The notes under the pieces were generated by a model. That model saw only the letters and a list, made by a program, of their open reading frames with translations, made no database searches and was not told the origin of the DNA. A stretch of DNA of 31,756 nt from a virus. Positions within the stretch are counted from its first letter, which is position 1. Every line of letters starts with the position of its first letter. Shown here in pieces: positions 74-31,619 of the stretch. Location of the stretch: the UHGV virus genome UHGV-0302986; one strand, 5' to 3'. The translations under genes and the position numbers were made by a program.

Positions 74-424
74 CTATTCGATAATGGGTCCTGTTGGCCA
101 TTCAATATCCGGTGCAGTTGATGTATCAACACGGTTCAGCAATACCCGATACTTCTTCCAGGCTTCCACCACCAGCACGACAAGATGCCGCATACAGTGA
201 CCCAGTCAGTCCAGTTTCCAGACAACCAGTGCGTCACCTTTTTGAAGGCGCTTTAAAGCACGTTTTAATCCAGGTCGGCCTGTCCTTATTCCGCTTAATT
301 TATCTTCAAATATTTGTTCACATCCTGCACAAACAAGAGCGTTTCGTTGCAGGTCTGTATTCTGGTCATTTGTTGATACCCTTACATAGCCAATCAGCAC
401 GCTGAATCTCCCGTCCAAAAGCAC
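74..424 (-). pseudogene. pin: Gin/Pin-family serine DNA invertase, degraded remnant
   Basis: ORF 206..424 translates to ...VLIGYVRVSTNDQNTDLQRNALVCAGCEQIFEDKLSG...LVVWKLD, the conserved N-terminus of Gin/Pin/Hin/Cin invertases (probable GTG start at 400). In-frame TGA at 206..208 sits where the family has Arg (WKLD-R-LGRSM). The continuation [14 protein letters not shown] keeps similarity briefly, then diverges and ends at TAG 74..76. No C-terminal HTH domain is found in any frame of 1..205. Confidence 0.6.
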
Positions 425-454: not shown

Positions 455-480
455 TTATCTAAAACCTCGGTTTACAGGAA
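455..480. repeat. gix/hix-like 26-bp invertase crossover site, left boundary of invertible segment
   Basis: TTATCTAAAACC-TC-GGTTTACAGGAA: two imperfect 12-bp half-sites around a 2-bp core, matching the remembered Gin/Hin site pattern. An inverted copy lies at 3508..3533, with 24 bp of identical flank (ACGGTAAA...) continuing inward. Confidence 0.7.
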
Positions 481-1425
481 ACGGTAAATCAGGCTTCTGG
501 CGCATTACAGAAAAACCAGAACGGCGCAGATATTCCGGGAAAAGATACCTTCACCAAAAACATTGGTGCCTGCCGCGCATATAGCGCATGGCTGAATATT
601 GGTGGCGATAGTCAGGTCTGGACAACTGCGCAATTTATTTCGTGGCTGGAGAGTCAGGGGGCATTTAACCATCCTTACTGGATGTGCAAAGGCTCATGGG
701 CTTATGCAAATAATAAGGTTATTACAGATACAGGTTGCGGAAATATTTGTCTTGCAGGTGCTGTGGTGGAAGTTATTGGCACTCGCGGCGCAATGACCAT
801 ACGCGTTACTACGCCGAGCACGTCCAGCGGTGGCGGAATTACTAACGCTCAATTCACTTATATTAATCATGGTGATGCTTACGCTCCTGGCTGGCGACGA
901 GACTACAACACGAAAAACCAGCAGCCTGCATTTGCTTTAGGGCAAACAGGACGCAGGGTCGCAAATGATAAAGCTGTTGGCTGGAACTGGAATAGCGGTG
1001 TTTATGATGCAGATATCAGTGGTGCATCGACATTAATCCTCCACTTCAATATGAATGCGGGGAGTTGCCCTGCTGTACAGTTCCGCGTGAATTACAGGAA
1101 CGGCGGTATTTTTTATCGTTCAGCGCGTGATGGTTATGGCTTTGAAGCTAACTGGTCAGAGTTTTACACCACAACACGCAAACCCTCTGCGGGGGATGTT
1201 GGTGCATATACGCAGGCAGAATGTAACTCAAGGTTTATTACAGGTATTCGCCTTGGCGGTCTGTCATCTGTTCAGACATGGAAAGGCCCCGGCTGGTCTG
1301 ACAGGTCAGGTTATGTCGTTACGGGTTCAGTTAACGGAAACCGTGATGAATTAATTGATACAACTCAGGCAAGGCCAATTCAGTATTGCATTAATGGGAC
1401 GTGGTATAACGCGGGGAGTATTTAA
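469..1425 (+). CDS. Silent alternative side-tail-fibre C-terminal cassette (promoterless; expressed only after inversion)
   Basis: The frame is open from the crossover site to the stop at 1423..1425 and contains track ORF 682..1425. Translation starts LGLQETVNQASGALQKN..., parallel to stf LGLQETVNRARNAVQKN..., and ends IQYCINGTWYNAGSI versus stf IQKYINGTWYNVVQV. An in-frame TAA at 460..462 lies in the outer half-site and would be left behind on inversion. Confidence 0.6.
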   Translation, partial: GLQETVNQASGALQKNQNGADIPGKDTFTKNIGACRAYSAWLNIGGDSQVWTTAQFISWLESQGAFNHPYWMCKGSWAYANNKVITDTGCGNICLAGAVVEVIGTRGAMTIRVTTPSTSSGGGITNAQFTYINHGDAYAPGWRRDYNTKNQQPAFALGQTGRRVANDKAVGWNWNSGVYDADISGASTLILHFNMNAGSCPAVQFRVNYRNGGIFYRSARDGYGFEANWSEFYTTTRKPSAGDVGAYTQAECNSRFITGIRLGGLSSVQTWKGPGWSDRSGYVVTGSVNGNRDELIDTTQARPIQYCINGTWYNAGSI

Positions 1426-1427
1426 CG

Positions 1428-1961
1428 ATGATGCACTTAAAAAACATTACTGCTGGCAACCCTAAAACAAAAGAGCAATACCAGCTAACAAAGCAATTTA
1501 ACATCAAATGGCTTTATTCAGATGATGGAAAAAACTGGTATGAGGAACAAAAGAATTTCCAGCCAGACACTTTGAAAATGGTCTATGACCATAACGGCGT
1601 TATTATTTGTATTGAAAAGGATGTTTCAGCAATTAATCCAGAGGGTGCAAGCGTCGTTGAATTACCTGATATTACAGCAAATCGCCGGGCTGATATTTCG
1701 GGGAAATGGATGTTCAAAGATGGCGTAGTGATAAAGCGAACTTATACCGAGGAAGAGCAGAGGCAACAAGCGGAAAATGAAAAGCAAAGCCTGTTGCAAC
1801 TTGTCAGGGATAAAACCCAGCTATGGGACTCACAGCTACGGCTGGGCATCATTTCCGACGAGAATAAACAAAAATTAACCGAGTGGATGCTCTATGCGCA
1901 GAAAGTCGAATCTACAGACACTTCCGGCCTGCCAGTAACGTTTCCCGAACAACCAGAATGA
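1428..1961 (+). CDS. tfa: Tail fibre assembly protein (cassette B)
   Basis: 177 aa; [25 protein letters not shown]...ANRRADISGKWMFKDG...LPVTFPEQPE is a paralogue of the minus-strand Tfa at 1990..2517. It lies immediately after the alternative fibre tip, as in Mu G / e14 P segments. Confidence 0.85.
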   Translation: MMHLKNITAGNPKTKEQYQLTKQFNIKWLYSDDGKNWYEEQKNFQPDTLKMVYDHNGVIICIEKDVSAINPEGASVVELPDITANRRADISGKWMFKDGVVIKRTYTEEEQRQQAENEKQSLLQLVRDKTQLWDSQLRLGIISDENKQKLTEWMLYAQKVESTDTSGLPVTFPEQPE

Positions 1962-1964
1962 GAG

Positions 1965-1991
1965 AAGGCCCGCTATCGGGCCTTAATTTTT
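1965..1991. terminator. Hairpin between convergent tfa genes, probable bidirectional terminator
   Basis: AAGGCCCG-CTAT-CGGGCCTT stem-loop followed by AATTTTT on the plus strand. Confidence 0.45.
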
Positions 1992-2517
1992 ACTCTGGTT
2001 TTTGTGGCCATTCAGGATTTGCCGTATCCACACGGCTGGCCAGAACACTGTAGCGTTCCCATGCTTCCAGTCGTGTGCGTTCCTCGTCTGTTGCCATATT
2101 CAGCCTGACAGCGCGTTCCAGCGGTTGGATGACTGATTCAGCTTCGGAAAGCAATGCGGCCTTTTGTGATTCGGCCTGTTGTTGTTGCTCGTCTGCCGTA
2201 TAAATCCGTTTAACCACAGCTCCGTCCCTAAACATCCACTTACCGGAATCATCAGCGCAGCGGTTGGCTGTAATATCTGGAACCTCAACGACGCTATAAC
2301 CTTCAGGGTTAAGCGTGGAGGCATCTTTGGTGATGGCGACAATAATATTATTTGCATCGTAAACAATCTTTATTGTGTCTGGCTGAAAGTTTTTCACTTC
2401 CTCATACCAGTTTTTTCCGTCTTCGGACCATAACCAGATAACATCAAAATTCTTTGTTAGCTGATATTGTTCTTTTGTTTTTGGATTTCCAGACTTAATA
2501 TTTTTTAAATGCTGCAT
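1990..2517 (-). CDS. tfa: Tail fibre assembly protein (cassette A, currently coupled to stf)
   Basis: 175 aa; [30 protein letters not shown]...[16 protein letters not shown]...EWPQKPE, Tfa family, directly downstream of stf. Confidence 0.85.
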
Positions 2518-2520
2518 AAA

Positions 2521-5400
2521 TTACACCTGTACGACGTTATACCATGTGCCATTGATGTATTTTTGTATTGGTCTGAATACTGCCGGATCATCGCCATCAA
2601 CTGCACCGATAATGCCAAGCCCCGTAATTGCATGACCTGATTTCTCATACATCACGCCTTTTTGCATAGTCTGAACAACACGTGTACCAAGTCGGACATC
2701 TCTCACATAACGTGAGTCAAAATTACCATAATTGCCGGGAATAACTTGCGCACCGCAAAGCCAGTTGCCATTGTTGTCCATGTACGCCTGACCATCGGTG
2801 CCATTGGCTGTCCTTGAGTTATTAATCATGTAGATGCCAAATTGCTTATTCCCCAGTCCACCAATCATAAATTTGCGATCAGCGTGGTCCTGACGAAGTA
2901 ATGCCTGCGCACCATCGGTGGATACCGCATTGCGTCCCAAAATAACATTCTGGTCACGCATATGAATCCACATGCCGGTACTACTGTTAATTGCAAAACG
3001 GTTTGCAAATATATCCCCTGTAACATCAAGACCATGCCCCATGCTTATCCGACCAGTTCTGAGATTAAGCGTAAAGGGGCGTAGTGGCCCTATACCACCA
3101 TTTTCTCCCTCATTCTCTCGTGTAGGGATGATATGCAGGCATTCTTCAGAACGACGAAAAATAGCACCAAAAGATGAATTAAATATCCTCAGTGCATTGA
3201 CTGTCGATATTTTTACTTCACTGCTGAAAAGGGCTTTAACAAGGACAGACAAAGCATCCCATTTAAGAGTCATCAGGTCTTTTGTTGTGGTGCTCTGGCG
3301 GCTTCTCCATTTGAAATATTCATTGCCGTTGTCGCCTGTTTCAAACCACATGTATGAATCAGTGTCGCTGTCGGCATTATTTTTAAAACCAATCTTTGCC
3401 CAGTCAGTATTTCTAATCCAGGCAAGGATTGAGTCGTTTTCAAAAGTAAGCCCACCGGACAAGGTATCGCCATTCTTTTGCACGGCGTTCCTGGCCCTGT
3501 TTACCGTTTCCTGTAAACCGAGGTATTCGATAACGGCAGCAACGGTCGATTTCGCAAGAATATCCCGCCCGACTTTTGTCAGGGTTGCCAGGCTGGCGAC
3601 ATCATTCCCCGTAAAATACGGAAACCTGTCTGCCGCAGTAGCAAGCCCGGCCAGCGCCGTCAGGGTGGCATCTTTCGGTTGCTTACCCGCAAGCGCGTTA
3701 GTCATGGTGGTCGCAAAATTCGGGTCGTTGCCCAGCGCCGCCGCTAACTCGTTCAGCGTATTCAGTGCGTCAGGCGACGAGTCTACAAGGGCGGCAATCG
3801 CGGCCATCACATAAGCCGTACTTGCGATCTGAGTATTATTAGTACCTTTTGGCGCAGTTGGCGTTGTTGGCGTTCCGGTCAGTGCAGGACTATTTAAGGG
3901 CGCTTTCTTGTTCGTTTCATCCATTACCGCCTTAACCGCTTTTGGTGTCGCAGCCAGCGTTTCAGACGGGCTGTTAGTGGCGCTACTGAGCTGAACCACA
4001 CCTTTTTTCGTCGTACTCGCATCTTCCAGAGATACGGCATCAGCAATATCCTCTGCCCGTTTTGCCGCTGTTTCGGCACGCGTTGCCGCGGATTCAGCAG
4101 CAACTTTGCTCTGAGATGCAGCCGTCGCACTGCCTGCCGCCTCTGATGCTTTCGTTGTTGCTGTCGTGGCACTACCTTTCGCTGCTGACGCTTGTCTGGT
4201 CGCCTCATCTTTTGAAGCAGACGCAGATGATGTCGATGACGCCGCTGAACCAGCGGACGATGCGGCTGCCGCCTTAGAGGAAGCAGCATTGTCTGCTGAA
4301 GTCTTTGCATTTGTTTCAGAGGTTTTTGCTGCAGAAGCAGACCTCGCTGCTGCAGTGGCTTGCTCAGTGGCTTCGCCAGCCTTCGTTGTGGCTGTTGAAG
4401 CGGATGATGCGGCGCTTTCTGCCGATTTTCCGGCAGCGGTGGCACTGGCTGAGGCCTGCCCGGCACTTGTTGACGCAGCACTGGCAGACGACGCAGCCGC
4501 TGTTTTTGAACCTGCCGCAGCTGAGGCGCTCTGTCCCGCTGCTGTTTCAGAAGACTTAGCGTTCGTCTCGGACGTTTTTGCCGCCTTCGCGGAATTTCCT
4601 GCCGCTGTTGCCGAGGAAGCTGCGCTACTGGCGCTCGAGGATGCGTTCGTTTCTGATGATTTTGCCGCCTCTTTTGAAGCCGCCGCATCCCGGGCTGAGG
4701 TGGCAGCTTCTGACGCTTTCGTAGTCGCGGTGGATGCAGAAGTGGCTGCTGATTGTTGTGACGCTGCAGCATTCGTTTCTGACGTTTTCGCGGCACTGGC
4801 ACTGGTAGCTGCCGCGCTTTTTGAGGACTCTGCAGCGGCAGCACTTTTTGATGCTTCAGTGGCCTTTGTTGATGCCGTTCCTGCGCTGGAAGTCGCTGAC
4901 TGAGCCGACGACGCGGCCTGTCCGGCTGACGTGCTGGCTGCGCGTGCTGAGCCTGCAGCATCAGTCGCATGGGTTGCCGCCTCACGGGCTGATGTGCTGG
5001 CATCACTGGCTGACTTCTTTGCGGCTGCCGTGTTCTGTGCCACCACGGACGCGTTACGCGCCACCTCTTCCACCATCAGCTCAAAACGGCGCAGTGCCTC
5101 CGGACGGGCATCATCCTCCGTCATGGCACCGAGAAAATCATTCAGCGTACCGGGTCAGGAATCTTCATACACTGTGATGGTCCCGGCATGTGACGGCGGG
5201 AATCCTTCCACCAACAGAATAACGCTGTACTGACCGTACTCAACGTCCATACTGTAACGCCCGGCTTCATCCGGATTTTCTGAGGCCAGCGTGTTCACCA
5301 CCACCGTGGTACTGTTACGTTTTGCTTTCAGCTGGATTGTGCAGTTCTGTACCGGTTTTCCTGTGCCGTCTTTCAGTACACCTGAAATCTTTACTGCCAT
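2521..5400 (-). CDS. stf: Side tail fibre protein Stf, interrupted by an in-frame TGA at 5155..5157
   Basis: N-terminal ORF (ATG at 5400) MAVKISGVLKDGTGKPVQNCTIQLKA...TITVYEDS matches the lambda Stf N-terminus. TGA at 5155..5157 is followed in the same frame by PGTLNDFLGAMTEDDARPEALRR... (track ORF 2521..5124, 867 aa), a long Ala/Ser/Thr-rich shaft and a C-terminal tip ending INGTWYNVVQV. Confidence 0.85.
3508..3533. repeat. gix-like crossover site inside stf, right boundary of invertible segment
   Basis: Minus-strand reading TTATCGAATACC-TC-GGTTTACAGGAA is an inverted copy of 455..480 and encodes stf residues IEYLGLQE. Confidence 0.7.
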
Positions 5401-5464: not shown

Positions 5465-6064
5465 TCAGAATTTATAACCAACACCCACGATGAACCCGTC
5501 AGTGCGCCAGTCACCACTGCCGGAGCCTTCATAAGCGACATCAATGGCCACGGATTCGGTCGGGTTAAACTGCACGCCAGCCCCCCACGCCAGAGACGTG
5601 TTGCTGTGGCGACCGTCATCACTTCCGGTCAGCACATCGTGCGTTTTCCCCTTGTTGTCAGTTACGCGGAGATAATCCCCGGAGAAAGTCGACACACGGC
5701 TGTAAGCCACGCCTGCCATCGCATACGCGCTGAACCATTCATTCACGCGTACAGACGGCCCCGCCATCACGCTGAACCAGCGGTTACGCACGGAATCTTC
5801 ATGCCAGCGGGTATCGCTGTAATGGGTCAGCTGGCGATTCTTGTCTCCTGCATAGCTGAACGACGTCACCATCCCCAGTGTGTCCGTAAACTCATAACGG
5901 TATTTCACGTTAATCCCGTTCAGATCATCACTGCCGGGAACGTTCGTCCGGGCATGAAGATACCCCGCGCTCAGCGTGGACTGATGTTCAGACGCCCATG
6001 CAGGCGCACCGGATACGGCCAGACAAATGGCTGCGGACAAAATGGCGGCATAAAGTTTACGCAT
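5465..6064 (-). CDS. lom: Outer membrane protein Lom (Ail/Lom family)
   Basis: 199 aa; MRKLYAAILSAAICLAVSGAPAWA signal peptide, then a beta-barrel sequence ending GFIVGVGYKF. Position between J and stf is as in lambda. Confidence 0.9.
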   Translation of the reverse strand: MRKLYAAILSAAICLAVSGAPAWASEHQSTLSAGYLHARTNVPGSDDLNGINVKYRYEFTDTLGMVTSFSYAGDKNRQLTHYSDTRWHEDSVRNRWFSVMAGPSVRVNEWFSAYAMAGVAYSRVSTFSGDYLRVTDNKGKTHDVLTGSDDGRHSNTSLAWGAGVQFNPTESVAIDVAYEGSGSGDWRTDGFIVGVGYKF

Positions 6065-6130: not shown

Positions 6131-9100
6131 TCAGCTGATACTGATACCTGCTGTGGATTTCTTCATCACCACAACCAGCAGATCGCTGATACTGGTTGTT
6201 GGTGTCCAGTTATTCGCTCCTGATGAAGATACGGTGAATGTCAGTGTCAGCGTCCCCTGTCCGGCAGGCATATCTATAACTGAGGAAAATACGCCCTGAG
6301 CATCCGTCGTGGACTGATTAAAAATCTCCTGACCATTGCGGGTCACTCTTAACCGGCAGGTTGAATACCAGTATGACTGTTGGTTATTACTGTTGAAATT
6401 CTCATGCTTACCACCGCGGAATAACACTGGCGGTATCATGACCTGCCGGTCAAATTTCTGATCATCACTGATTCTTACCGTGATGGTGCCACTGGCATAA
6501 CTGTTCGTGCGGGGGAAAGACTTGCTGACCGTTTTGACAATATCGCCTTCAATCTGATTGGCTGACAGTTTCCCCTTAATCTGACAGTTTTCATTAATCG
6601 TGACATTGTTGAGCGTCCCTGAATTTGCATTCACATTACCGCTGATATCCGCATTTTTAGCGGTCAGCTTTCCGTCTGGTGTCAGGGAAAATGCCGGCGG
6701 ATTTCCACCGCTGGTAATGGTGGGAGCCGTCAGGCGTTTCAGGAACACGTCGTTCATGAATATCTGATCGCCCTGACCAACAAACATCGGTTTTGTGTTG
6801 CCATTCGCAGGATTAACCATCGCAATCCTGTCCGCCGCCAGCAGCACCTGACTCTGCATGCCGTCAGGGGTATTCTCAATACCGGCACCAATACCCGCGA
6901 TATAAAGGCGTCCGTCCTGCATCTGCTGCAGCTTCACAGCCCACATGCTGTTCAGGTTATTATTTGTATCAACCTGAACCTTCTGTATCTGCTGAATTGC
7001 AGCACTCTGGTCTTCCAGTTTCTTATTGACGGTCTGCGTGATTTCATTGCTGACATCCGTAATGGACGTCCTGATTTCAGCCAGGTCAGGCGCAAGCTGA
7101 CCGTTATCAATCTGCGTCCACAGCTCCTGAGCCAGATGGGTTTTCCCTATCTCGCCTTTGAAAAAATCCAGATAACCGGATGCATCATCACTCGGCTGAC
7201 CAACAGCCTCCACGAATGCCGATTTGCCAACGGTGTTCACACTGCGGATATAAAAGTAATAATCATGGCCCGGTTTGATATTGATACTGGCGGCTATCCA
7301 GTACAGCGCCGTGCCAAGATAGCGTGCTGTGGTTTCAACCTGCCTGATATCCGCAATCCGCTTTTCCGAGAACCAGAACTCAAACTGTACCGTCGGATCA
7401 TAAACCGCAAGATGCGGCGTGGCGGTTATCTGAAAATAGCCCGGCGTCAGCTCAATCCGCGACGGCGCTGCCGGTGCGGCAATCCGGAACGATACCGACG
7501 CCGGATCGCCCTGCTGCCCCCACGCATTTACTGCCCGGACTGTCAGCCTGTAGTTCCCCAGCGCCAGTTGTGTGAAGCGGTAAGTGGTTTCCGTCGTCCG
7601 GGCCGTGCTGACCAGCCGCTCACTGCCGTCATCCGCTGTTACGGTCAGACGGAGCAGGAAGCTCACGCCCTTCACCACCTTCGGTGTGTCCCATCGCGCC
7701 AGCACCTGATATTCCCCGCTGTCTGCAGTGACTTCGGCGGTCAGGTGCTGCACTGCTGGCGGCGTGACACCATTCACCGTGCCGCTCTGGTCACCGTCAA
7801 AGTGCGCCCCGTTATCCACGATGGCTTCTTTTTCCGGTACATGCTGCACGGCGGTGATGGCATACGTGCCGTCGTCGTTCTCACGGATACTCACGCAGCG
7901 GAACAGGCGCTGGCGCAGCGTCGGCAGCTTCAGCCCCCACACGCTGTATTCAGCAACGCCGTCAGGAACACGGCTCACTTTCACCTTCACGCCGTCGGTG
8001 ACGGACTGAACCTCCACGCTGACCGGATTGCCACTTCCGTCAACCAGGCTTATCAGCGTGGTGCCGGAAGATGGCAGCGTGATTTCACGGTCGAGCGTCA
8101 GCGTCCGGGTCTGGCTGTTTACCGCCAGCACGCGCCCGCCGGTGCGGATACCGGCATAGTCATCATCGCAGATTTCAATGACATCGCCCGGTACATGGCG
8201 AAGCCCTTCGGCACCCACGCTGAAGTCCACGGTCTGCGTTTCCAGCAGTTCTGTTTTAATCAGCCACAGCCCGGCGCGGTGTGCCTGCCCCCGGCTGGTA
8301 CAGCCAAAAGCATCCATCTTCGTGACGTTACGACCGTAACGGGCAATGGCCTGCGTGTCCTCCACAAGCTCTGTCGCCGTCTCCCAGCCGTTATTCGGGT
8401 CAATCCAGTTCACCTCAACGGCATTATGGCGGTCCTTCAGGGCGCTGAAGCTGTAGCGGAACGGCGCACCATCATCCGGCATCACCACATTACTGCGGTT
8501 ATAGGTCCACACCTTATCCGACGGTCGGTCCTGCACGAACGTCAGCGTCTGCCCGTTCCATACCGGCATACAGCGCATCGCAGAGCAGAAATCACTGAGC
8601 ACATCCCACGCCTTGCGCTGTGTGGTCAGGTACGCATTACAGGTGATGCGCGGCTCCGTGCCGCCAAAACCGTCCGGCACCGACTGATCGCAATGCTGGC
8701 CGATGACATACAGCGCCCATTTGTCCACATCCGCCGCACCAAGACGTTTCCCCATGCCGTAGCGCGGATGGGTCAGCATATCCCACAGACACCAGGCCAT
8801 GTTGTTGCTGTATGCTGGCTTAAACGTTCCGTCCCAGATACCGCTGTATTGCCGCGTCTGCGGGTTATAGTTCGACGGCACCTGCAGAATGCGCCCGCGA
8901 AGATGATAATTACGGCTCACCTGCTGGCTGCCGAACTGCTCCGAATCCACCTGCACGCCGACCAGTGCCGTGTTCGGGTAGCACTGTTTCACATCGATGA
9001 TTTCGGTGTATGACGACCAGAGCGTTTTGTTCTGCAGCTGGTCTGTGGTGCTGTCCGGCGTCATTCTGCGCATCCGGATATTAAACGGGCGCGGCGGCAG

Positions 9101-9613
9101 GTTATCCACCACCACCGAGGCCAGATACTGCGAGGTGGTTTTGCCCTTAATGGTGATGTCTTTTTCCGTCACCCAGCCACCGTTACGTTGTATCTGAACC
9201 AGCAGGCGAACTTCCGACGGATTCCGGTCCCCCTTTGAGGTGGTTTCCACCAGTGCCTGCACACCGAAGGTAAAGCGCAGACGGTCGATGTTTGCCGACG
9301 TGATGGTCCGGGTAATCGGCGTGTCGTACTTCACTTCCGTACCCAGCACCGTCTCGGAGCCGGAGGATTCAAATCCCTCCGGCGGTGTCTGCTCCTGCTC
9401 ACCGGCCCGGAACACCACCGTGACGCCGGATATATTGGTATTCCCCTCACTGTCCAGCACCGGCGTACTGTTCAGCAGCACGCTTTTTAATCCATCCACC
9501 GGACCTTCAACCGGCCCTTCGCTGATGGCATCGATCACACTCAGCAGCTGCGTGGACTTCAGGTTGTCCTTCGCTTCGCGCGGGGTATGCCCCTTACTGC
9601 TGCCTTTACCCAT
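6131..9613 (-). CDS. J: Tail tip / central tail fibre protein J
   Basis: 1160 aa; the N-terminus [39 protein letters not shown] matches lambda J; position after I. Confidence 0.95.
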
Positions 9614-9673
9614 TCGTCATGCTCCATAAACGATAAAACCGCCCGGAGGCGGTTTCACATAAAACATTTTGCA

Positions 9674-10315
9674 TCAGCGACCAATCACCACAACCTGACC
9701 ACCATCCCCTTCGTCTGCCGTGCTGATCTCCTGAGAAACCACGCGTGACCCCACGCGCATTTCACCGTACAGAACCGGCAGAACATTGCCCTGGGCAACC
9801 ATGTTATCCAGTGAAGAAAAATAGGTATTCTGTTTGCCGTTATCCGTTGTCTGTGTGCGGGGGGTTTTGGGTTTAGGGGCCAGCATCTGTGCAACACCGC
9901 CAAGCGTCATACTGGTACCGAGAGAAAACAGCAGATTACTCGCCATAATTCCTACCCCCGGCATCCATATAGCAACCGCCATAACAGCCGCCCCCAGCAC
10001 AGCCTGAAACACACCGCCACTTTTGGCTCCTGCCAGACGCGGCACGATATGGATCACGGCACCATTTTCCAGCGGCTCATTAAGACGGGCAGACAATTCG
10101 GTTTCACCTGCATCACGCCCGGCAATGCGTACCTGGTACCAGCCGTCGCTCAGTTTCTGACGAAATGCCGGGATCTGCATGGCCAGCGCCCGGATGGCTT
10201 CGGACCCCGTTTTCACTCGAAGGTCGATGCGGCGGCCAAATCGTTGTAAATCCCCGTAAAGGCAGATGCGCGCCATGCCCGGTGACGCCAGAGGGAGTGT
10301 GTGCGTCGCTGCCAT
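9674..10315 (-). CDS. I: Tail assembly protein I
   Basis: 213 aa; MAATHTLPLASPGMARICLYGDLQRFGRRIDLRVKTG...; overlaps the 3' end of K as in lambda. Confidence 0.85.
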   Translation of the reverse strand: MAATHTLPLASPGMARICLYGDLQRFGRRIDLRVKTGSEAIRALAMQIPAFRQKLSDGWYQVRIAGRDAGETELSARLNEPLENGAVIHIVPRLAGAKSGGVFQAVLGAAVMAVAIWMPGVGIMASNLLFSLGTSMTLGGVAQMLAPKPKTPRTQTTDNGKQNTYFSSLDNMVAQGNVLPVLYGEMRVGSRVVSQEISTADEGDGGQVVVIGR

Positions 10316-28240: not shown

Positions 28241-29323
28241 ATGAAAAAATTAACAGTGGCAATTTCTGCTGTAGCTGCATCAGTACTGATGGCGATGTCT
28301 GCTCAGGCAGCTGAAATTTATAATAAAGACAGTAACAAGCTGGATCTGTACGGGAAAGTTAATGCTAAGCACTACTTCTCCTCTAATGATGCAGATGATG
28401 GTGATACTACTTATGCCCGTCTTGGCTTCAAAGGTGAAACCCAAATCAACGATCAACTGACTGGTTTCGGTCAGTGGGAATATGAATTCAAAGGCAACCG
28501 CGCTGAATCTCAAGGTTCCTCCAAAGACAAAACCCGTCTTGCATTTGCAGGCCTGAAATTCGGTGACTACGGCTCAATCGATTACGGCCGTAACTACGGT
28601 GTAGCATACGACATCGGTGCGTGGACTGACGTTCTGCCAGAATTCGGTGGCGATACCTGGACCCAAACAGATGTATTCATGACTGGTCGCACCACAGGTG
28701 TTGCAACTTATCGTAACAACGACTTCTTTGGTCTGGTTGATGGCCTGAACTTTGCAGCTCAGTATCAGGGCAAAAATGACCGAAATGAAGTAACTGAAGC
28801 TAATGGCGATGGTTTCGGTTTCTCAACTACTTATGAGTATGAAGGATTCGGCGTGGGTGCAACCTATGCTAAATCTGATCGCACTAATAATCAGGTTATC
28901 TACGGTAACAACGGTCTGAATGCTTCTGGTCAAAATGCTGAAGTATGGGCAGCTGGTCTGAAATATGATGCGAACAACATCTATCTGGCCACCACCTATT
29001 CTGAAACCCAGAACATGACTGTTTTTGGTAATAACCATATTGCCAACAAAGCACAAAACTTCGAAGCTGTTGCACAATATCAGTTCGACTTCGGCCTGCG
29101 TCCATCCGTTGCTTACCTGCATTCTAAAGGAAAAGACTTGGGTGTTTGGGGTGATCAGGACCTGGTTGAATATGTTGATGTAGGTGCAACCTATTACTTC
29201 AACAAAAATATGTCCACTTTTGTTGACTACAAAATCAACCTGATTGATAAGAGCGATTTCACGAAAGCATCTGGCGTTGCTACCGATGATATCGTTGCTG
29301 TAGGTATGGTTTACCAGTTCTAA
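28241..29323 (+). CDS. nmpC: Outer membrane general porin (OmpC/NmpC/Lc family), prophage moron
   Basis: 360 aa; signal peptide [59 protein letters not shown]-terminal ...VGMVYQF. It lies opposite to and between Q and the lysis genes, preceded by a ~540-bp AT-rich region. Confidence 0.9.
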
Positions 29324-29487: not shown

Positions 29488-29511
29488 AACTTTTAGTAAA
29501 TAATTGGCGTA

Positions 29512-29895
29512 TTAATTAGAGTTATTAACAACGATATCCATCTCTAACCGGATATCTAATGCCATTAACATCCCTTCAATTATGCCCTCAGCCTTCTGTA
29601 ACCTTTTCCCGATATAACCATCAGAGCAGCAATGCTTACCTGCCAGTGACATGAATGTCATACCGACTACATAATAATCTACTAATAAATCGTGCAAATC
29701 GCTGTTGTTCTTTTTCAGACGGGCCATGCACCCGCAAATGATCATCGCGTCATCGTCACAACATTGCGGGCGAGATTTTACTTTTGAAGTAATTAATCCC
29801 TTAAAACCGGCGGCAATGGACGACCAGGTCACATCTTCATGATTATTAGCCGCCCACGCTCCCCAACGCTCAAGAACCATCTGAATATCACGCAT
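29512..29895 (-). CDS. quuD: Late gene antiterminator Q (DLP12 QuuD / phage-82 type)
   Basis: [62 protein letters not shown]... (127 aa from the internal Met of the track ORF). Confidence 0.85.
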
Positions 29896-29980
29896 CAACT
29901 TACTCCACAAAAATCAGACCAGAACGCCAATTACAAGCAAAAATCAACGAAACAGTATTAGTTGATTGTTATCTCTGACT

Positions 29981-30118
29981 TCATACTCCTGCTCCTGTCA
30001 GGGTTTTGGCGTAATTCTTCAGTATTCGGTAATCGGTCAAAACAGAACCGGGGAAACGATATAAGCGCAGACGCCCCCAGCGGTGGCGAAGACGTTCTGC
30101 CATATAAAACTCAAACAT
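29981..30118 (-). CDS. ylcG: Small protein YlcG-like
   Basis: 45-aa ORF below the track cutoff, translated by hand as [45 protein letters not shown]; its ATG overlaps the rusA stop (TGATG). Confidence 0.6.
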   Translation of the reverse strand: MFEFYMAERLRHRWGRLRLYRFPGSVLTDYRILKNYAKTLTGAGV

Positions 30119-30480
30119 CATTCATTCCCCATTTCGGTGATGGTCAGTTCCAGCCTCCCACCTTTGGTAACAGGCATCTTCACAACGCGGTAATCAACGA
30201 CCTGAGCATCATCCAGCCAGAAACCTGCTTTAGTGAGTGCGTCAAAAGCGGCTTTTTGCAGATTATCCAGGTCACGGCGACGGCGATCCGGCATGTGGCA
30301 CTCAATGCGGATTTTCACAGGCATAGCCAGGCCGATATCCAGCATTGCGTTTTTAATGATTCGGGCGACGTTATCGCGGTATGCCTGCCCCTCTGCGCTG
30401 ACGTGCGTGCGCCCGCGATTATGGCGGTAATAGCGATTATTGCTCGGAGGCCAGGGTAATGTGATGCTGTAGGTATTCAC
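30118..30480 (-). CDS. rusA: Holliday junction resolvase RusA
   Basis: 120 aa; [50 protein letters not shown]... Confidence 0.9.
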
Positions 30481-30767
30481 GCCTTAATAACCCCCTCTTT
30501 CAGCCAGATAACCTGTGTTCTCGCCATACCTTCCAGCGCGCATTCTTTTGCATATGCAGCATCGACAAAATGTGTGCGGCGGTCGATTTCGTCGTGGCAG
30601 GCAGAACATGCAATGGTGGCAATCAGGTCTGGCGGTTTGGTACCGGTGCCGCACAATCCAGTCAGCCGGATATGTGCCAGTACAGACGTTTCAGGGTTGC
30701 CATTACATACGCCAGGGATTCTTACCTGGCATTCCCGACTACGCGCTGCTTTTCTCAAATCAGCCAT
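30477..30767 (-). CDS. ybcO: YbcO-like protein (DUF1364, putative nuclease)
   Basis: [64 protein letters not shown]... (conserved Cys/His); start taken at the internal ATG that overlaps the ninE stop. Confidence 0.8.
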
Positions 30768-30930
30768 GATTCCTCCTTGCTGCCAGTCGCAACCATTTTT
30801 TATCAACCAGGCTGGCGGTATATCCGAGCAGTGTTGGTATTTCGGAAGGCTTCAGCTCCGGTTTACGCTTACGACGATCTGGTACTCTGTAGATGTGTCC
30901 GTTCATGACACGAATAAGCGGTGTAGCCAT
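30760..30930 (-). CDS. ninE: NinE-like small protein
   Basis: 56-aa ORF below the track cutoff, translated by hand as [56 protein letters not shown]; its ATG overlaps the ybcN stop (TAATG). Confidence 0.6.
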   Translation of the reverse strand: MATPLIRVMNGHIYRVPDRRKRKPELKPSEIPTLLGYTASLVDKKWLRLAARRNHG

Positions 30931-31385
30931 TACGCCTCCTGCTTGTCGCGGAGCAGCTGGAACTCGCAGCTCTGCGGAATAGTCAGGTGGCAGCCAATAT
31001 TCACCGCCCAGGCTTCAACCTTACACAGGAAGACATACATCTCTCCGGTATCAAGATCGGAGGTATGGCGTAACGACTGGATAGTGGTGATATCACCGGT
31101 TACAACATCAACCAGGTCTTTGGTTTCATAACCGAGATATGTGTGTTTGAGAGCATCTTTTACCCAAGCTGGAGTAGCGAACGTTTTACCCCTGCTGATG
31201 AGGTATTCACTGATTTCGCTGTACCACATGTGGCTGAGTGCATTCTGGGAAAGACTGCGTTTCTCACGCCACGGTTTAAGCACCATGCGAAAGCATTTGC
31301 CCTCCTCCAGATAAGGCTGGATCTGCCGACCGATAGCGGTGAAGTTACCGCGATGTAATTTGATGCCATCTTGTGGGAGATTCAC
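30930..31385 (-). CDS. ybcN: YbcN-like protein (DLP12 nin-region protein; DNA base-flipping family)
   Basis: 151 aa; (GTG start) [62 protein letters not shown]... Confidence 0.8.
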
Positions 31386-31483
31386 GCTTCACCTCCGCAG
31401 AGGTCAAACGCTGGATACAATATATCGCAGGTGCATTTCTGCATCTGTGGAGGGAGAAGAGAGTTTGGATTGTGTGTGCGCAT
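31382..31483 (-). CDS. Small ORF, possibly YlcH-like
   Basis: 33-aa ORF translated by hand as [33 protein letters not shown]; its stop overlaps the ybcN GTG start (GTGA). Naming is from memory and uncertain. Confidence 0.35.
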
Positions 31484-31619
31484 AAACGTCCCCGTTTAGC
31501 GCAGAAGTCACCGGAGTTGTTCAGGCTCCGATGACATGATTATGGCGAGTTGATTATCGCAAATCAAAGGTTTTAATTGTGCTTTATTCCTTCAAGCGTT
31601 GCCTTCATACCAACCAAAG

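What the first reader, a model, noticed from the sequence alone, without database searches (positions are those of the whole stretch)
74..424. The invertase next to the shufflon is degraded (in-frame TGA, C-terminus missing)
The first ~72 codons are near-identical to the Gin/Pin N-terminus, including the catalytic-serine region YVRVSTNDQ. A TGA then replaces the conserved Arg of WKLDRLGRSM, similarity fades within ~30 codons, and a TAG ends the frame at 74..76; no DNA-binding HTH domain is found in any frame. The switch is therefore probably frozen in its current orientation unless a related invertase from another prophage acts in trans, which is known for this family. A remembered feature of Gin/Hin systems is a Fis-dependent enhancer within the 5' part of the invertase gene; that part is retained here, so a trans-acting enzyme could still have what it needs.
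Basis: partly seen in the sequence, partly recalled or inferred. Interest (0 to 1): 0.5.

Follow-up and report, generated by a model that had tools for sequence, protein, structure and literature searches.

The report
Truncated invertase beside a still-flipping switch
The DNA-flipping enzyme gene next to this prophage's tail-fibre switch is a dead stump fused to a scrap of another gene, yet near-identical E. coli strains carry the 3-kb segment in both orientations, so other invertases in the cell almost certainly flip it; the same module was described in strain EC958 in 2014.

Summary
On the minus strand a Mu-gin-type invertase gene starts at GTG 400, not 424. It runs 64 codons and hits TGA at 206-208 in place of the Arg of DRLGR.

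Similarity does not fade. After 34 more nt that resemble pinE (205-172), the sequence joins abruptly, and in frame, to the last 32 codons of the resident lambda-type tfa gene (171-77, TAG 76-74). No HTH domain is present in the window or in 6 kb downstream in a near-identical genome.

The same stump and junction occur in 783 of 5426 complete E. coli genomes, including EC958 prophage Phi4 (97% identical). Forde et al. 2014 described that truncated invertase and saw both orientations in one culture.

"Probably frozen" is not supported.
- The computed flip of 467-3521 occurs at 100% identity in at least 40 genomes.
- Strain ET76 equals the flipped window, with 9 mismatches in 29.5 kb.
- PSS-13 and 13C1065T differ only by the inversion over about 11 kb.
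- Two chromosomal flank haplotypes each show both orientations.

Both 26-bp crossover sites are intact. The first 112 nt of the stump, where the enhancer is expected, are identical to Mu gin. Trans action is inferred; one flipped genome carries an intact pinR. This is known biology of modest interest.

The parts
209..400 (-). Remnant of a Mu-gin-type DNA invertase gene: GTG start and 64 codons, including the catalytic-serine motif YVRVSTNDQ.
   Evidence: 61/64 residues identical to Mu Gin. Pfam Resolvase positions 2-73 of 145. PGAP calls it 'recombinase family protein' WP_001378636.1 in the identical locus of PSS-13. 93.5-95.9% DNA identity to gin of Mu, D108 and P88.
206..208 (-). In-frame TGA replacing the first Arg of the DRLGR catalytic motif.
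   Evidence: Alignments A2 and A3: intact homologues have CGC or CGG here. The same TGA is present in EC958 Phi4.
172..205 (-). Last invertase-derived stretch ([12 protein letters not shown]). It is pinE-like rather than gin-like, and its first 9 nt are heavily mutated.
   Evidence: The 25 nt ATGCGGCATCTTGTCGTGCTGGTGG are identical to K-12 pinE and unlike Mu gin. Phage gin alignments all stop at window ~210.
74..171 (-). 3' end of the resident lambda-type tail-fibre assembly gene tfa (last 32 codons plus TAG), joined in frame to the invertase stump.
   Evidence: 96.5% DNA identity to the tfa 3' end and downstream DNA of strain 55989. It matches residues 163-194 of the 55989 Tfa protein. Pfam Caudo_TAP positions 104-130 of 131. 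PGAP: 'tail fiber assembly protein, missing N-terminus'.
289..400 (-). Stretch 100% identical to the first 112 nt of Mu gin. This is the expected position of the Fis-dependent recombinational enhancer. Candidate Fis cores lie at 365-379 and 316-330.
   Evidence: Alignment A3. G-N13-C 15-mers spaced 49 bp apart, with the proximal one centred 95 bp from the crossover centre. The Hin enhancer lies ~100 bp from hixL (PMC3798978). Enhancer function here is inferred, not tested.
455..480 (-). Invertase-proximal 26-bp crossover site TTCCTGTAAACC GA GGTTTTAGATAA (core at 467-468).
   Evidence: Inverted repeat I2. One of only two matches in the window, with none expected by chance. One mismatch from the Mu site in A3. 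Near-identical to the EC958 Phi4 sites in Table 3 of PMC4134206.
3508..3533 (+). Distal 26-bp crossover site inside stf, TTCCTGTAAACC GA GGTATTCGATAA (core at 3520-3521).
467..3521 (.). The 3,055-bp invertible segment.
   Evidence: Found precisely inverted in 13C1065T and ET76. The flipped junction is present at 100% identity in >=40 genomes.
481..1425 (+). Silent alternative C-terminal part of the tail fibre (open frame from the crossover site, 314 codons).
   Evidence: A computed flip gives an uninterrupted fibre ORF. Pfam gp37_C. It is the expressed arm in ET76.
1428..1961 (+). Silent alternative tfa' (177 aa).
   Evidence: Pfam Caudo_TAP, full length. Protein WP_000972143.1 in relatives.
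1990..2517 (-). tfa in the expressed orientation (175 aa).
   Evidence: Pfam Caudo_TAP. WP_032234139.1.
2521..5400 (-). Side tail fibre gene stf. The constant part lies upstream of 3533 and the variable part inside the segment. In this window it is interrupted by TGA at 5155-5157.
   Evidence: ET76 and PSS-13 have CGA at that codon.

Best explanation
Window 400-74 (minus strand) is the right-hand scar of a cassette replacement.

A Mu/P2-type invertible tail-fibre cassette of about 3.8 kb replaced the distal part of stf and most of tfa in a lambda-like prophage at the lambda attachment site. The cassette comprises the variable fibre end, tfa, an inverted tfa', an inverted alternative fibre end, and gin. 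Its right junction was an illegitimate join with no evident microhomology. That join cut the invertase gene after codon ~76 and happened to land in frame on the last 32 codons of the resident tfa. The stump later acquired a TGA and further substitutions in the DRLGRS motif.

The stump cannot make a recombinase. It has no second Arg of the catalytic motif, no E-helix and no HTH domain. What survives are the cis elements: both 26-bp crossover sites, and the first 112 nt of gin, where the Fis-bound enhancer lies at about 95 bp from the near site.

The segment therefore remains a substrate. Full-length Gin/Pin-family invertases encoded elsewhere in the cell bind the two sites, are activated by Fis on the retained enhancer, and invert 467-3521. 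Candidate donors are Rac pinR, Qin pinQ, e14 pinE, P2-like or Mu-like prophages, and P1-type plasmids.

Shown:
- the anatomy and the junction;
- the inability of the stump to encode an enzyme;
- the natural occurrence of both orientations on otherwise identical backgrounds.

Inferred:
- that the flipping is done by trans-acting serine invertases;
- that the retained gin 5' end serves as the enhancer.
For: Anatomy and junction:
- establish the layout.
- Strain 55989 has J-lom-stf-tfa-DGC at the same site without the cassette.
- Homology to 55989 resumes at window 171 on one side and 3929 on the other.
- The cassette interior is 90-93.5% identical to invertible cassettes of a Mu-like and a P2-like prophage that carry intact invertases.

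The truncation is old and widespread:
- The stump occurs in 783 of 5426 genomes.
- The identical TGA and junction occur in EC958/ST131 Phi4 at a different chromosomal site, at 97% identity with no gaps.

The segment still flips:
- The computed flipped junction is found at 100% over 609 nt in all 40 listed genomes, and 229 genomes reach >=80% coverage.
- The window-orientation junction is at 100% in 25 genomes, and 135 reach >=80% coverage.
- Of 60 genomes with a 100%-identical stump, about 40 are flipped and about 18 are in the window orientation.
- 13C1065T matches the flipped window with 1 mismatch in 4,930 nt. Its 6 kb of chromosomal flank is 100% identical to PSS-13, which has the window orientation.
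- ET76 matches the flipped window with 9 mismatches in 29,493 nt.
- Two flank haplotypes differ at 44 of 5,000 positions, and each contains both orientations.
- Both orientations give open fibre frames and intact tfa genes.

The cis elements are intact:
- There are two sites only.
- The first 112 nt are identical to Mu gin.

Trans donors are plausible:
- 13C1065T carries an intact 196-aa pinR with Resolvase and HTH_7 domains.
- 50 of 60 stump-bearing genomes have another gin/pinE-like locus.
- 3,426 of 5,426 genomes have DNA matching the pinE 3' half.

Literature:
- Forde 2014 reports the truncated Phi4 invertase, both orientations in a single culture, and concludes that the enzyme acts in trans (PMC4134206).
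- PinQ/PinR invert the e14 segment in trans, and PinE inverts the Mu G segment (PMC12529663).
Against: - No experiment or read-level data for this genome were available, and the window does not contain the rest of the genome. Whether this strain has a compatible invertase is unknown.
- The crossover products cannot separate site-specific exchange at the 2-bp core from homologous exchange anywhere in the 25-nt identical part of the repeats.
- Ten of the 60 inspected genomes show no second gin/pinE-like locus on the chromosome, yet they occur in both orientations. Their state may be inherited.
- The enhancer assignment rests on identity to Mu gin and on recalled positions of the Gin/Hin enhancers. 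The Fis-motif scan is uninformative on its own.
- In this window stf itself has a nonsense codon upstream of the switch, so flipping here may have no phenotypic output.
Confidence: 0.8

Rival explanations
1. The switch is frozen. With its own invertase destroyed, the segment stays in the orientation it had when the gene was truncated. The two orientations seen in databases are two old, separately inherited alleles.
For: The stump cannot encode an enzyme. Ten of 60 genomes with the stump have no other gin/pinE-like locus on the chromosome. In M9682-C1 a deletion has removed the second crossover site, so that copy really is fixed.
Against: Backgrounds that are identical or nearly so differ only by the inversion: 0 differences in 6 kb of flank plus 1 in 4.9 kb, and 9 in 29.5 kb. 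Both orientations occur within each of two flank haplotypes. The homologous EC958 Phi4 module was heterogeneous within one culture (PMC4134206).
Confidence: 0.1
2. The inversions are made by general homologous recombination (RecA) between the 38-bp imperfect inverted repeats, not by a site-specific invertase.
For: The arms share a 25-nt identical stretch. Exchange anywhere in it gives exactly the observed product.
Against: From general knowledge, 25 nt is at the lower limit for RecA-dependent exchange. That fits poorly with flips recurring faster than single-nucleotide changes. The longer tfa/tfa' repeat (161 nt, 75% identity) is not the endpoint used. The repeats are canonical invertase sites with a 2-bp core. 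Trans inversion by Pin-family enzymes is documented experimentally (PMC12529663).
Confidence: 0.07
3. The stump still yields an active or regulatory protein. This could be through TGA readthrough, giving a 108-aa Gin'-'Tfa fusion, or as a 64-aa peptide that modulates other invertases.
For: The GTG start and leader are conserved. PGAP annotates a 64-aa CDS in many genomes. The junction to tfa is in frame.
Against: Even with readthrough the product lacks the catalytic Arg (now His), half of the Resolvase domain, the E-helix and the HTH. The EC958 copy has additional stops: TGG to TGA in the stump and TAG in the tfa part. That argues against selection on the reading frame.
Confidence: 0.03

Closest known systems
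E. coli ST131 EC958 prophage Phi4: truncated invertase EC958_1582 with a 3,106-bp invertible tail-fibre segment (Forde et al. 2014, PLoS One, PMC4134206)
   Same: The stump, TGA and gin::tfa junction are the same: 371 of 383 nt identical with no gaps. The 26-bp crossover sites are near-identical and the architecture is the same (stf, tfa, inverted tfa', inverted fibre end, stump). Both orientations were observed there, and trans action was proposed.
   Different: It is a different prophage at a different chromosomal site, next to ompW/trpA rather than bio. The variable cassette content is only 71-80% identical. The EC958 copy has extra stop codons, and the tfa remnant and downstream DNA differ.
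Phage Mu G segment with gin
   Same: The crossover site differs by one base. The first 112 nt of the gene are identical. The ~3-kb segment carries two fibre ends and two assembly genes, and the enhancer is expected inside the 5' end of the invertase gene.
   Different: Mu gin is intact (193 aa with HTH) and is followed by com and mom. Here the gene ends after about 76 codons, and the host element is a lambda-like siphovirus prophage, not a Mu-like myovirus.
e14 P segment with PinE, inverted in trans by PinQ/PinR of Qin/Rac (Kirigo et al. 2025, NAR, PMC12529663)
   Same: This is a tail-fibre inversion in a defective E. coli prophage, driven by an invertase encoded in a different prophage. Both orientations occur among deposited genomes.
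   Different: e14 keeps its own active pinE. Its segment is 1.8 kb with different sites. A host phenotype (T2 adsorption block) is shown there and none is shown here.
Salmonella H segment with Hin, also inverted by Fin of prophage Fels-2
   Same: It shows cross-reactivity among the DNA invertase subfamily. A Fis enhancer lies about 100 bp from one site inside the invertase gene (PMC3798978; PMC12529663).
   Different: That system is a promoter inversion controlling flagellin, not a coding-sequence swap, and its own invertase is intact.

Membership tests
DNA invertase subfamily of small serine recombinases (Gin/Pin/Cin/Hin) | N-terminal catalytic domain with the nucleophilic serine (Ser9 motif YxRVST) | tested here: met
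   YVRVSTNDQ is present. Pfam Resolvase E = 3.5e-18, but only profile positions 2-73 of 145.
DNA invertase subfamily of small serine recombinases (Gin/Pin/Cin/Hin) | Complete catalytic pocket (DRLGR arginines) and the E-helix for dimer/tetramer formation | tested here: not met
   The first Arg is TGA and the second Arg is His. Everything after residue ~76 has been replaced by tfa sequence.
DNA invertase subfamily of small serine recombinases (Gin/Pin/Cin/Hin) | C-terminal helix-turn-helix DNA-binding domain (Pfam HTH_7) | tested here: not met
   Absent from the stump. There is no tblastn match in the window or in 6 kb downstream in PSS-13. It is present in the intact homologue and in PinR.
Invertase-type invertible segment (G/C/P-segment type) | Two 26-bp crossover sites in inverted orientation with identical 2-bp cores, one of them inside the fibre gene so that inversion swaps in-frame C-termini | tested here: met
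   Sites at 455-480 and 3508-3533 with a GA/TC core. The computed flip keeps the fibre frame open.
Invertase-type invertible segment (G/C/P-segment type) | Fis-dependent enhancer in cis (in the natural systems, inside the 5' end of the invertase gene) | tested here: inconclusive
   The first 112 nt are identical to Mu gin, and candidate Fis cores sit about 95 bp from the site. Fis binding and enhancer activity are not testable with these tools.
Invertase-type invertible segment (G/C/P-segment type) | The segment is actually found in both orientations | tested here: met
   Within-culture evidence exists for the homologous EC958 module.
Shufflon (multiple-inversion system, R64/Rci type) | More than two crossover sites giving many arrangements, with a tyrosine recombinase Rci | tested here: not met
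   There are only two sites in the 31.7-kb window, and the associated gene is a serine-recombinase remnant.
Tail fibre assembly protein Tfa (Pfam Caudo_TAP) | Full-length ~175-195-aa chaperone | tested here: not met
   The 74-171 piece covers only profile positions 104-130 of 131. It is a 3' remnant. The two tfa genes inside the segment are full length.

The most novel reading that the evidence does not exclude
The stump persists because its first ~110 nt are kept as a cis-acting enhancer. On this reading the cassette is a self-sufficient, invertase-less module that relies on whatever Gin/Pin-family enzyme the cell carries. It spreads between lambdoid prophages by homologous exchange through the stf 5' part on one side and the tfa 3' remnant on the other. 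That would explain why one ancient junction is found in 14% of E. coli genomes, at different prophage sites, and with different variable contents. Flipping driven by host-domesticated PinR/PinQ could also give defective prophages a host-level role, as reported for e14.
Probability: 0.3. Interest if true: 0.45.

Novelty: already known. Interest (0 to 1): 0.25.

Why it matters
For annotation, the 'recombinase family protein' of 64 aa and the neighbouring tfa pseudogene are two halves of one recombination scar. The adjacent 'partial' fibre genes are the silent arm of a working switch, not decay.

For biology, a switch can outlive its own enzyme as long as its sites and enhancer stay in cis and the cell carries a cross-reacting invertase. 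Orientation of such segments therefore cannot be predicted from the local gene. Complete-genome comparisons will show these regions as recurrent 3-kb inversions.

None of this is new in principle. The contributions here are the exact junction map, the prevalence figure, and the zero-SNP orientation pairs.

Tried and rejected
- **Gradual decay of the C-terminus.** Rejected. Alignments show a sharp junction to tfa.
- **Sequencing or assembly error for the TGA.** Rejected. It is shared by hundreds of independent complete genomes.
- **Microhomology at the junction.** Against pinE and the 55989 tfa I found none (pin ...GCTGGTGG | TGGAAGCC... tfa). The true parents are not available, so this is only approximate.
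- **An intact gene with the same gin-like/pinE-like mosaic.** None was found. Every hit covering the whole 259-nt stump that I inspected was truncated.
- **Fis-site scan with G-N13-C 15-mers.** Too degenerate to be evidence by itself.
- **Promoter and terminator scan of 1-700.** Nothing found.
- **e14 pinE as the trans donor in 13C1065T.** e14 is absent there. An intact pinR was found in Rac instead. The second gin/pinE-like locus counted in that genome was not located.
- **Johnson's 2015 review of DNA inversion (PMC4384473).** Not held. The 1985 enhancer-mapping papers are not in the library, so the enhancer position in gin rests on recalled knowledge plus the Hin description in PMC3798978.
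- **Per-genome table of orientation against invertase content for all 783 genomes.** Not possible, because the search tool lists at most 60 rows.

Full report
**Setting.** The window is the late region of a lambda-like prophage. All of the following lie on the minus strand: terminase, portal, capsid, tail, J, lom at 5465-6064, and stf. In near-identical genomes it sits at the lambda attachment site. Just beyond window position 1 come a diguanylate cyclase gene, ybhB and bioA.

**Layout at the low-coordinate end.**
- stf occupies 2521-5400 on the minus strand.
- tfa occupies 1990-2517 on the minus strand.
- An inverted tfa' occupies 1428-1961 on the plus strand.
- An inverted alternative fibre C-terminus is open from 481 to 1425 on the plus strand.
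- The feature in question follows.

Two 26-bp sites in inverted orientation bound a 3,055-bp segment. They lie at 455-480 and 3508-3533 and share a GA/TC core. They are the only such sites in the window, so this is a two-state G-segment-type inversion, not a multi-site shufflon.

**Checking the observation.** On the minus strand the sequence from GTG 400 encodes VLIGYVRVSTNDQ... It is identical to Mu Gin at 61 of 64 residues and is followed by TGA at 206-208. Mu gin and the intact E. coli homologues are annotated from the GTG that corresponds to 400.

The TGA replaces the first Arg of DRLGR. The second Arg is His and the Ser is Cys. Pfam sees Resolvase profile positions 2-73 of 145 and no HTH_7. 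An intact homologue from IHE3034 shows both domains. tblastn with Gin finds no further piece in the window or in 6 kb downstream in PSS-13.

The lesion is real. 161 records carry the 259-nt stump at >=99% identity, and 783 of 5,426 genomes carry it in all.

**What the 'fading similarity' really is.** Alignment with K-12 pinE and with the tfa 3' end of strain 55989 shows a sharp junction.
- Invertase-derived sequence runs to ...GTGCTGGTGG at window 172.
- From 171 to position 1 the window is 96.5% identical to the last 32 codons of a lambda-type tfa and the DNA downstream of it.
- Pfam assigns the post-stop peptide to the extreme C-terminus of Caudo_TAP.
- PGAP annotates the same thing in identical loci.
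- The junction is in frame.

The stump is itself a mosaic. Alignments to gin of Mu, D108 and P88 all end at about 210. The 25 nt before the junction are identical to pinE and unlike gin.

**Origin.** Strain 55989 has, at the same chromosomal site, J-lom-stf-tfa followed by the same diguanylate cyclase gene, with no invertible cassette. Its homology to the window stops at 3929 on the stf side and resumes at 171.

The interior of the window's cassette is 90-93.5% identical to invertible cassettes of a Mu-like prophage (with com downstream) and a P2-like prophage. Both of those carry intact invertases. The simplest reading is a cassette replacement whose right end was an illegitimate join inside the invertase gene.

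The event is old. The same TGA and the same junction occur in ST131 strains in a different prophage next to ompW/trpA. That copy is 97% identical, with no gaps, extra stop codons and a different variable cassette.

**Is the switch frozen?** I inverted 467-3521 in silico. The fibre frame stays open in both states, at 867 and 853 codons counted from ATG 5124.

The junction 'stump + site + currently expressed fibre arm' exists only in the flipped state.
- It is found at 100% identity over 609 nt in every one of the 40 listed genomes, and 229 genomes reach >=80% coverage.
- The window-state junction is at 100% in 25 genomes, and 135 reach >=80% coverage.
- I matched accession lists by hand. Of 60 genomes with a 100%-identical stump, about 40 are flipped and about 18 are in the window state.

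Three close comparisons make the point.
1. Strain 13C1065T carries a reciprocal, precise inversion. The flipped window aligns to it over 4,930 nt with one mismatch. Its 6 kb of bio-side flank is 100% identical to PSS-13, which has the window orientation.
2. Strain ET76 equals the flipped window, with 9 mismatches in 29,493 nt.
3. A second flank haplotype differs at 44 of 5,000 positions and also contains both states, in ETEC6 and M9682-C1.

Inversion has therefore happened repeatedly and recently, after the invertase was destroyed.

**How it most likely works.** The cis requirements are intact: two canonical sites, and a gin 5' end whose first 112 nt are identical to Mu gin. In Hin the enhancer lies about 100 bp from the near site, inside the invertase gene, with a Fis site at each end (PMC3798978). 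That the Gin enhancer occupies the equivalent position is my recollection of Kahmann et al. 1985 and was not checked here. The homologous positions in the window are about 316-379, roughly 95 bp from the crossover centre.

The enzyme must come from elsewhere.
- Cross-reaction within this subfamily is established. PinQ/PinR of Qin/Rac invert the e14 P segment, PinE inverts Mu G, and Fin inverts the Salmonella H segment (PMC12529663).
- For the homologous EC958 Phi4 module, Forde et al. described the truncated invertase lacking the HTH and found both orientations in one PacBio data set. They concluded that another prophage's invertase acts in trans (PMC4134206).
- In 13C1065T I found an intact 196-aa pinR (Resolvase + HTH_7) in Rac.
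- PinR is too divergent to be counted by the DNA search. The figure of 50 of 60 genomes with another gin/pinE-like locus is therefore a lower bound on possible donors.
- DNA matching the missing 3' half of pinE is present in 3,426 of 5,426 genomes.

**Limits.** I could not see the rest of this genome or any read data. The sequence of the product cannot exclude RecA-mediated exchange within the 25-nt identical core of the repeats. The enhancer function is inferred.

In this particular window stf has a CGA-to-TGA nonsense change at 5155-5157. That change is absent from ET76 and PSS-13. Whatever the orientation, full-length fibre is not made here without readthrough.

**Verdict.** The 'frozen' inference is not supported, and the 'trans' alternative is. 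The module and its behaviour are already in the literature for EC958. What is added here is the exact junction, its prevalence, and natural near-isogenic pairs that differ only by the flip.

Noticed in passing
window 5155-5157 (minus strand): The tail fibre gene really starts at ATG 5400. In this window it carries an in-frame TGA at codon 82, where ET76 and PSS-13 have CGA. The gene served by the switch is therefore itself interrupted in this genome.
   Followed up: yes
window 172-209: The invertase stump is a mosaic. It is gin-like up to about 210, then has 25 nt identical to K-12 pinE, with a cluster of substitutions (including the TGA) at the boundary. I found no intact gene with this combination.
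   Followed up: partly
L001 6701-8032 (just outside window position 1): A sensor diguanylate cyclase gene lies between the tfa remnant and ybhB. It is also present in strain 55989, which lacks the cassette, and is absent from K-12 at this position as far as I recall. It is probably prophage cargo at the bio-side end.
   Followed up: no
L012 (M9682-C1) 8300-9998: In this O6:H16 ETEC strain the flipped segment is cut by a deletion inside tfa and joined to a J fragment. The second crossover site is lost, so this copy is genuinely locked.
   Followed up: partly
window 29494-31619: This 2.1-kb stretch, carrying a Q antiterminator and a NinB-like ORF, is missing in ET76, where an IS1 and a truncated integrase follow. 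Relatives of this prophage are degraded to different extents. 13C1065T has lost all genes between the stf 5' end and the lysis genes.
   Followed up: partly
window 28241-29323 (+): A full-length general porin gene (Pfam Porin_1, annotated ompC in ET76) sits inside the prophage between the lysis genes and the Q region.
   Followed up: no
L010 (EC958 Phi4) versus window 500-3500: The truncated gin::tfa end is 97% identical between the two prophages, but the variable fibre and tfa content of the invertible segment is only 71-80% identical. The same scar is linked to different cassettes.
   Followed up: partly
L001 1301-4180 (PSS-13): PGAP splits an uninterrupted 959-codon stf into a 'partial' N-terminal pseudogene and a 'hypothetical protein'. 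In several genomes it also labels the silent fibre arm as an incomplete gene. These look like annotation artefacts of mosaic fibre genes.
   Followed up: partly
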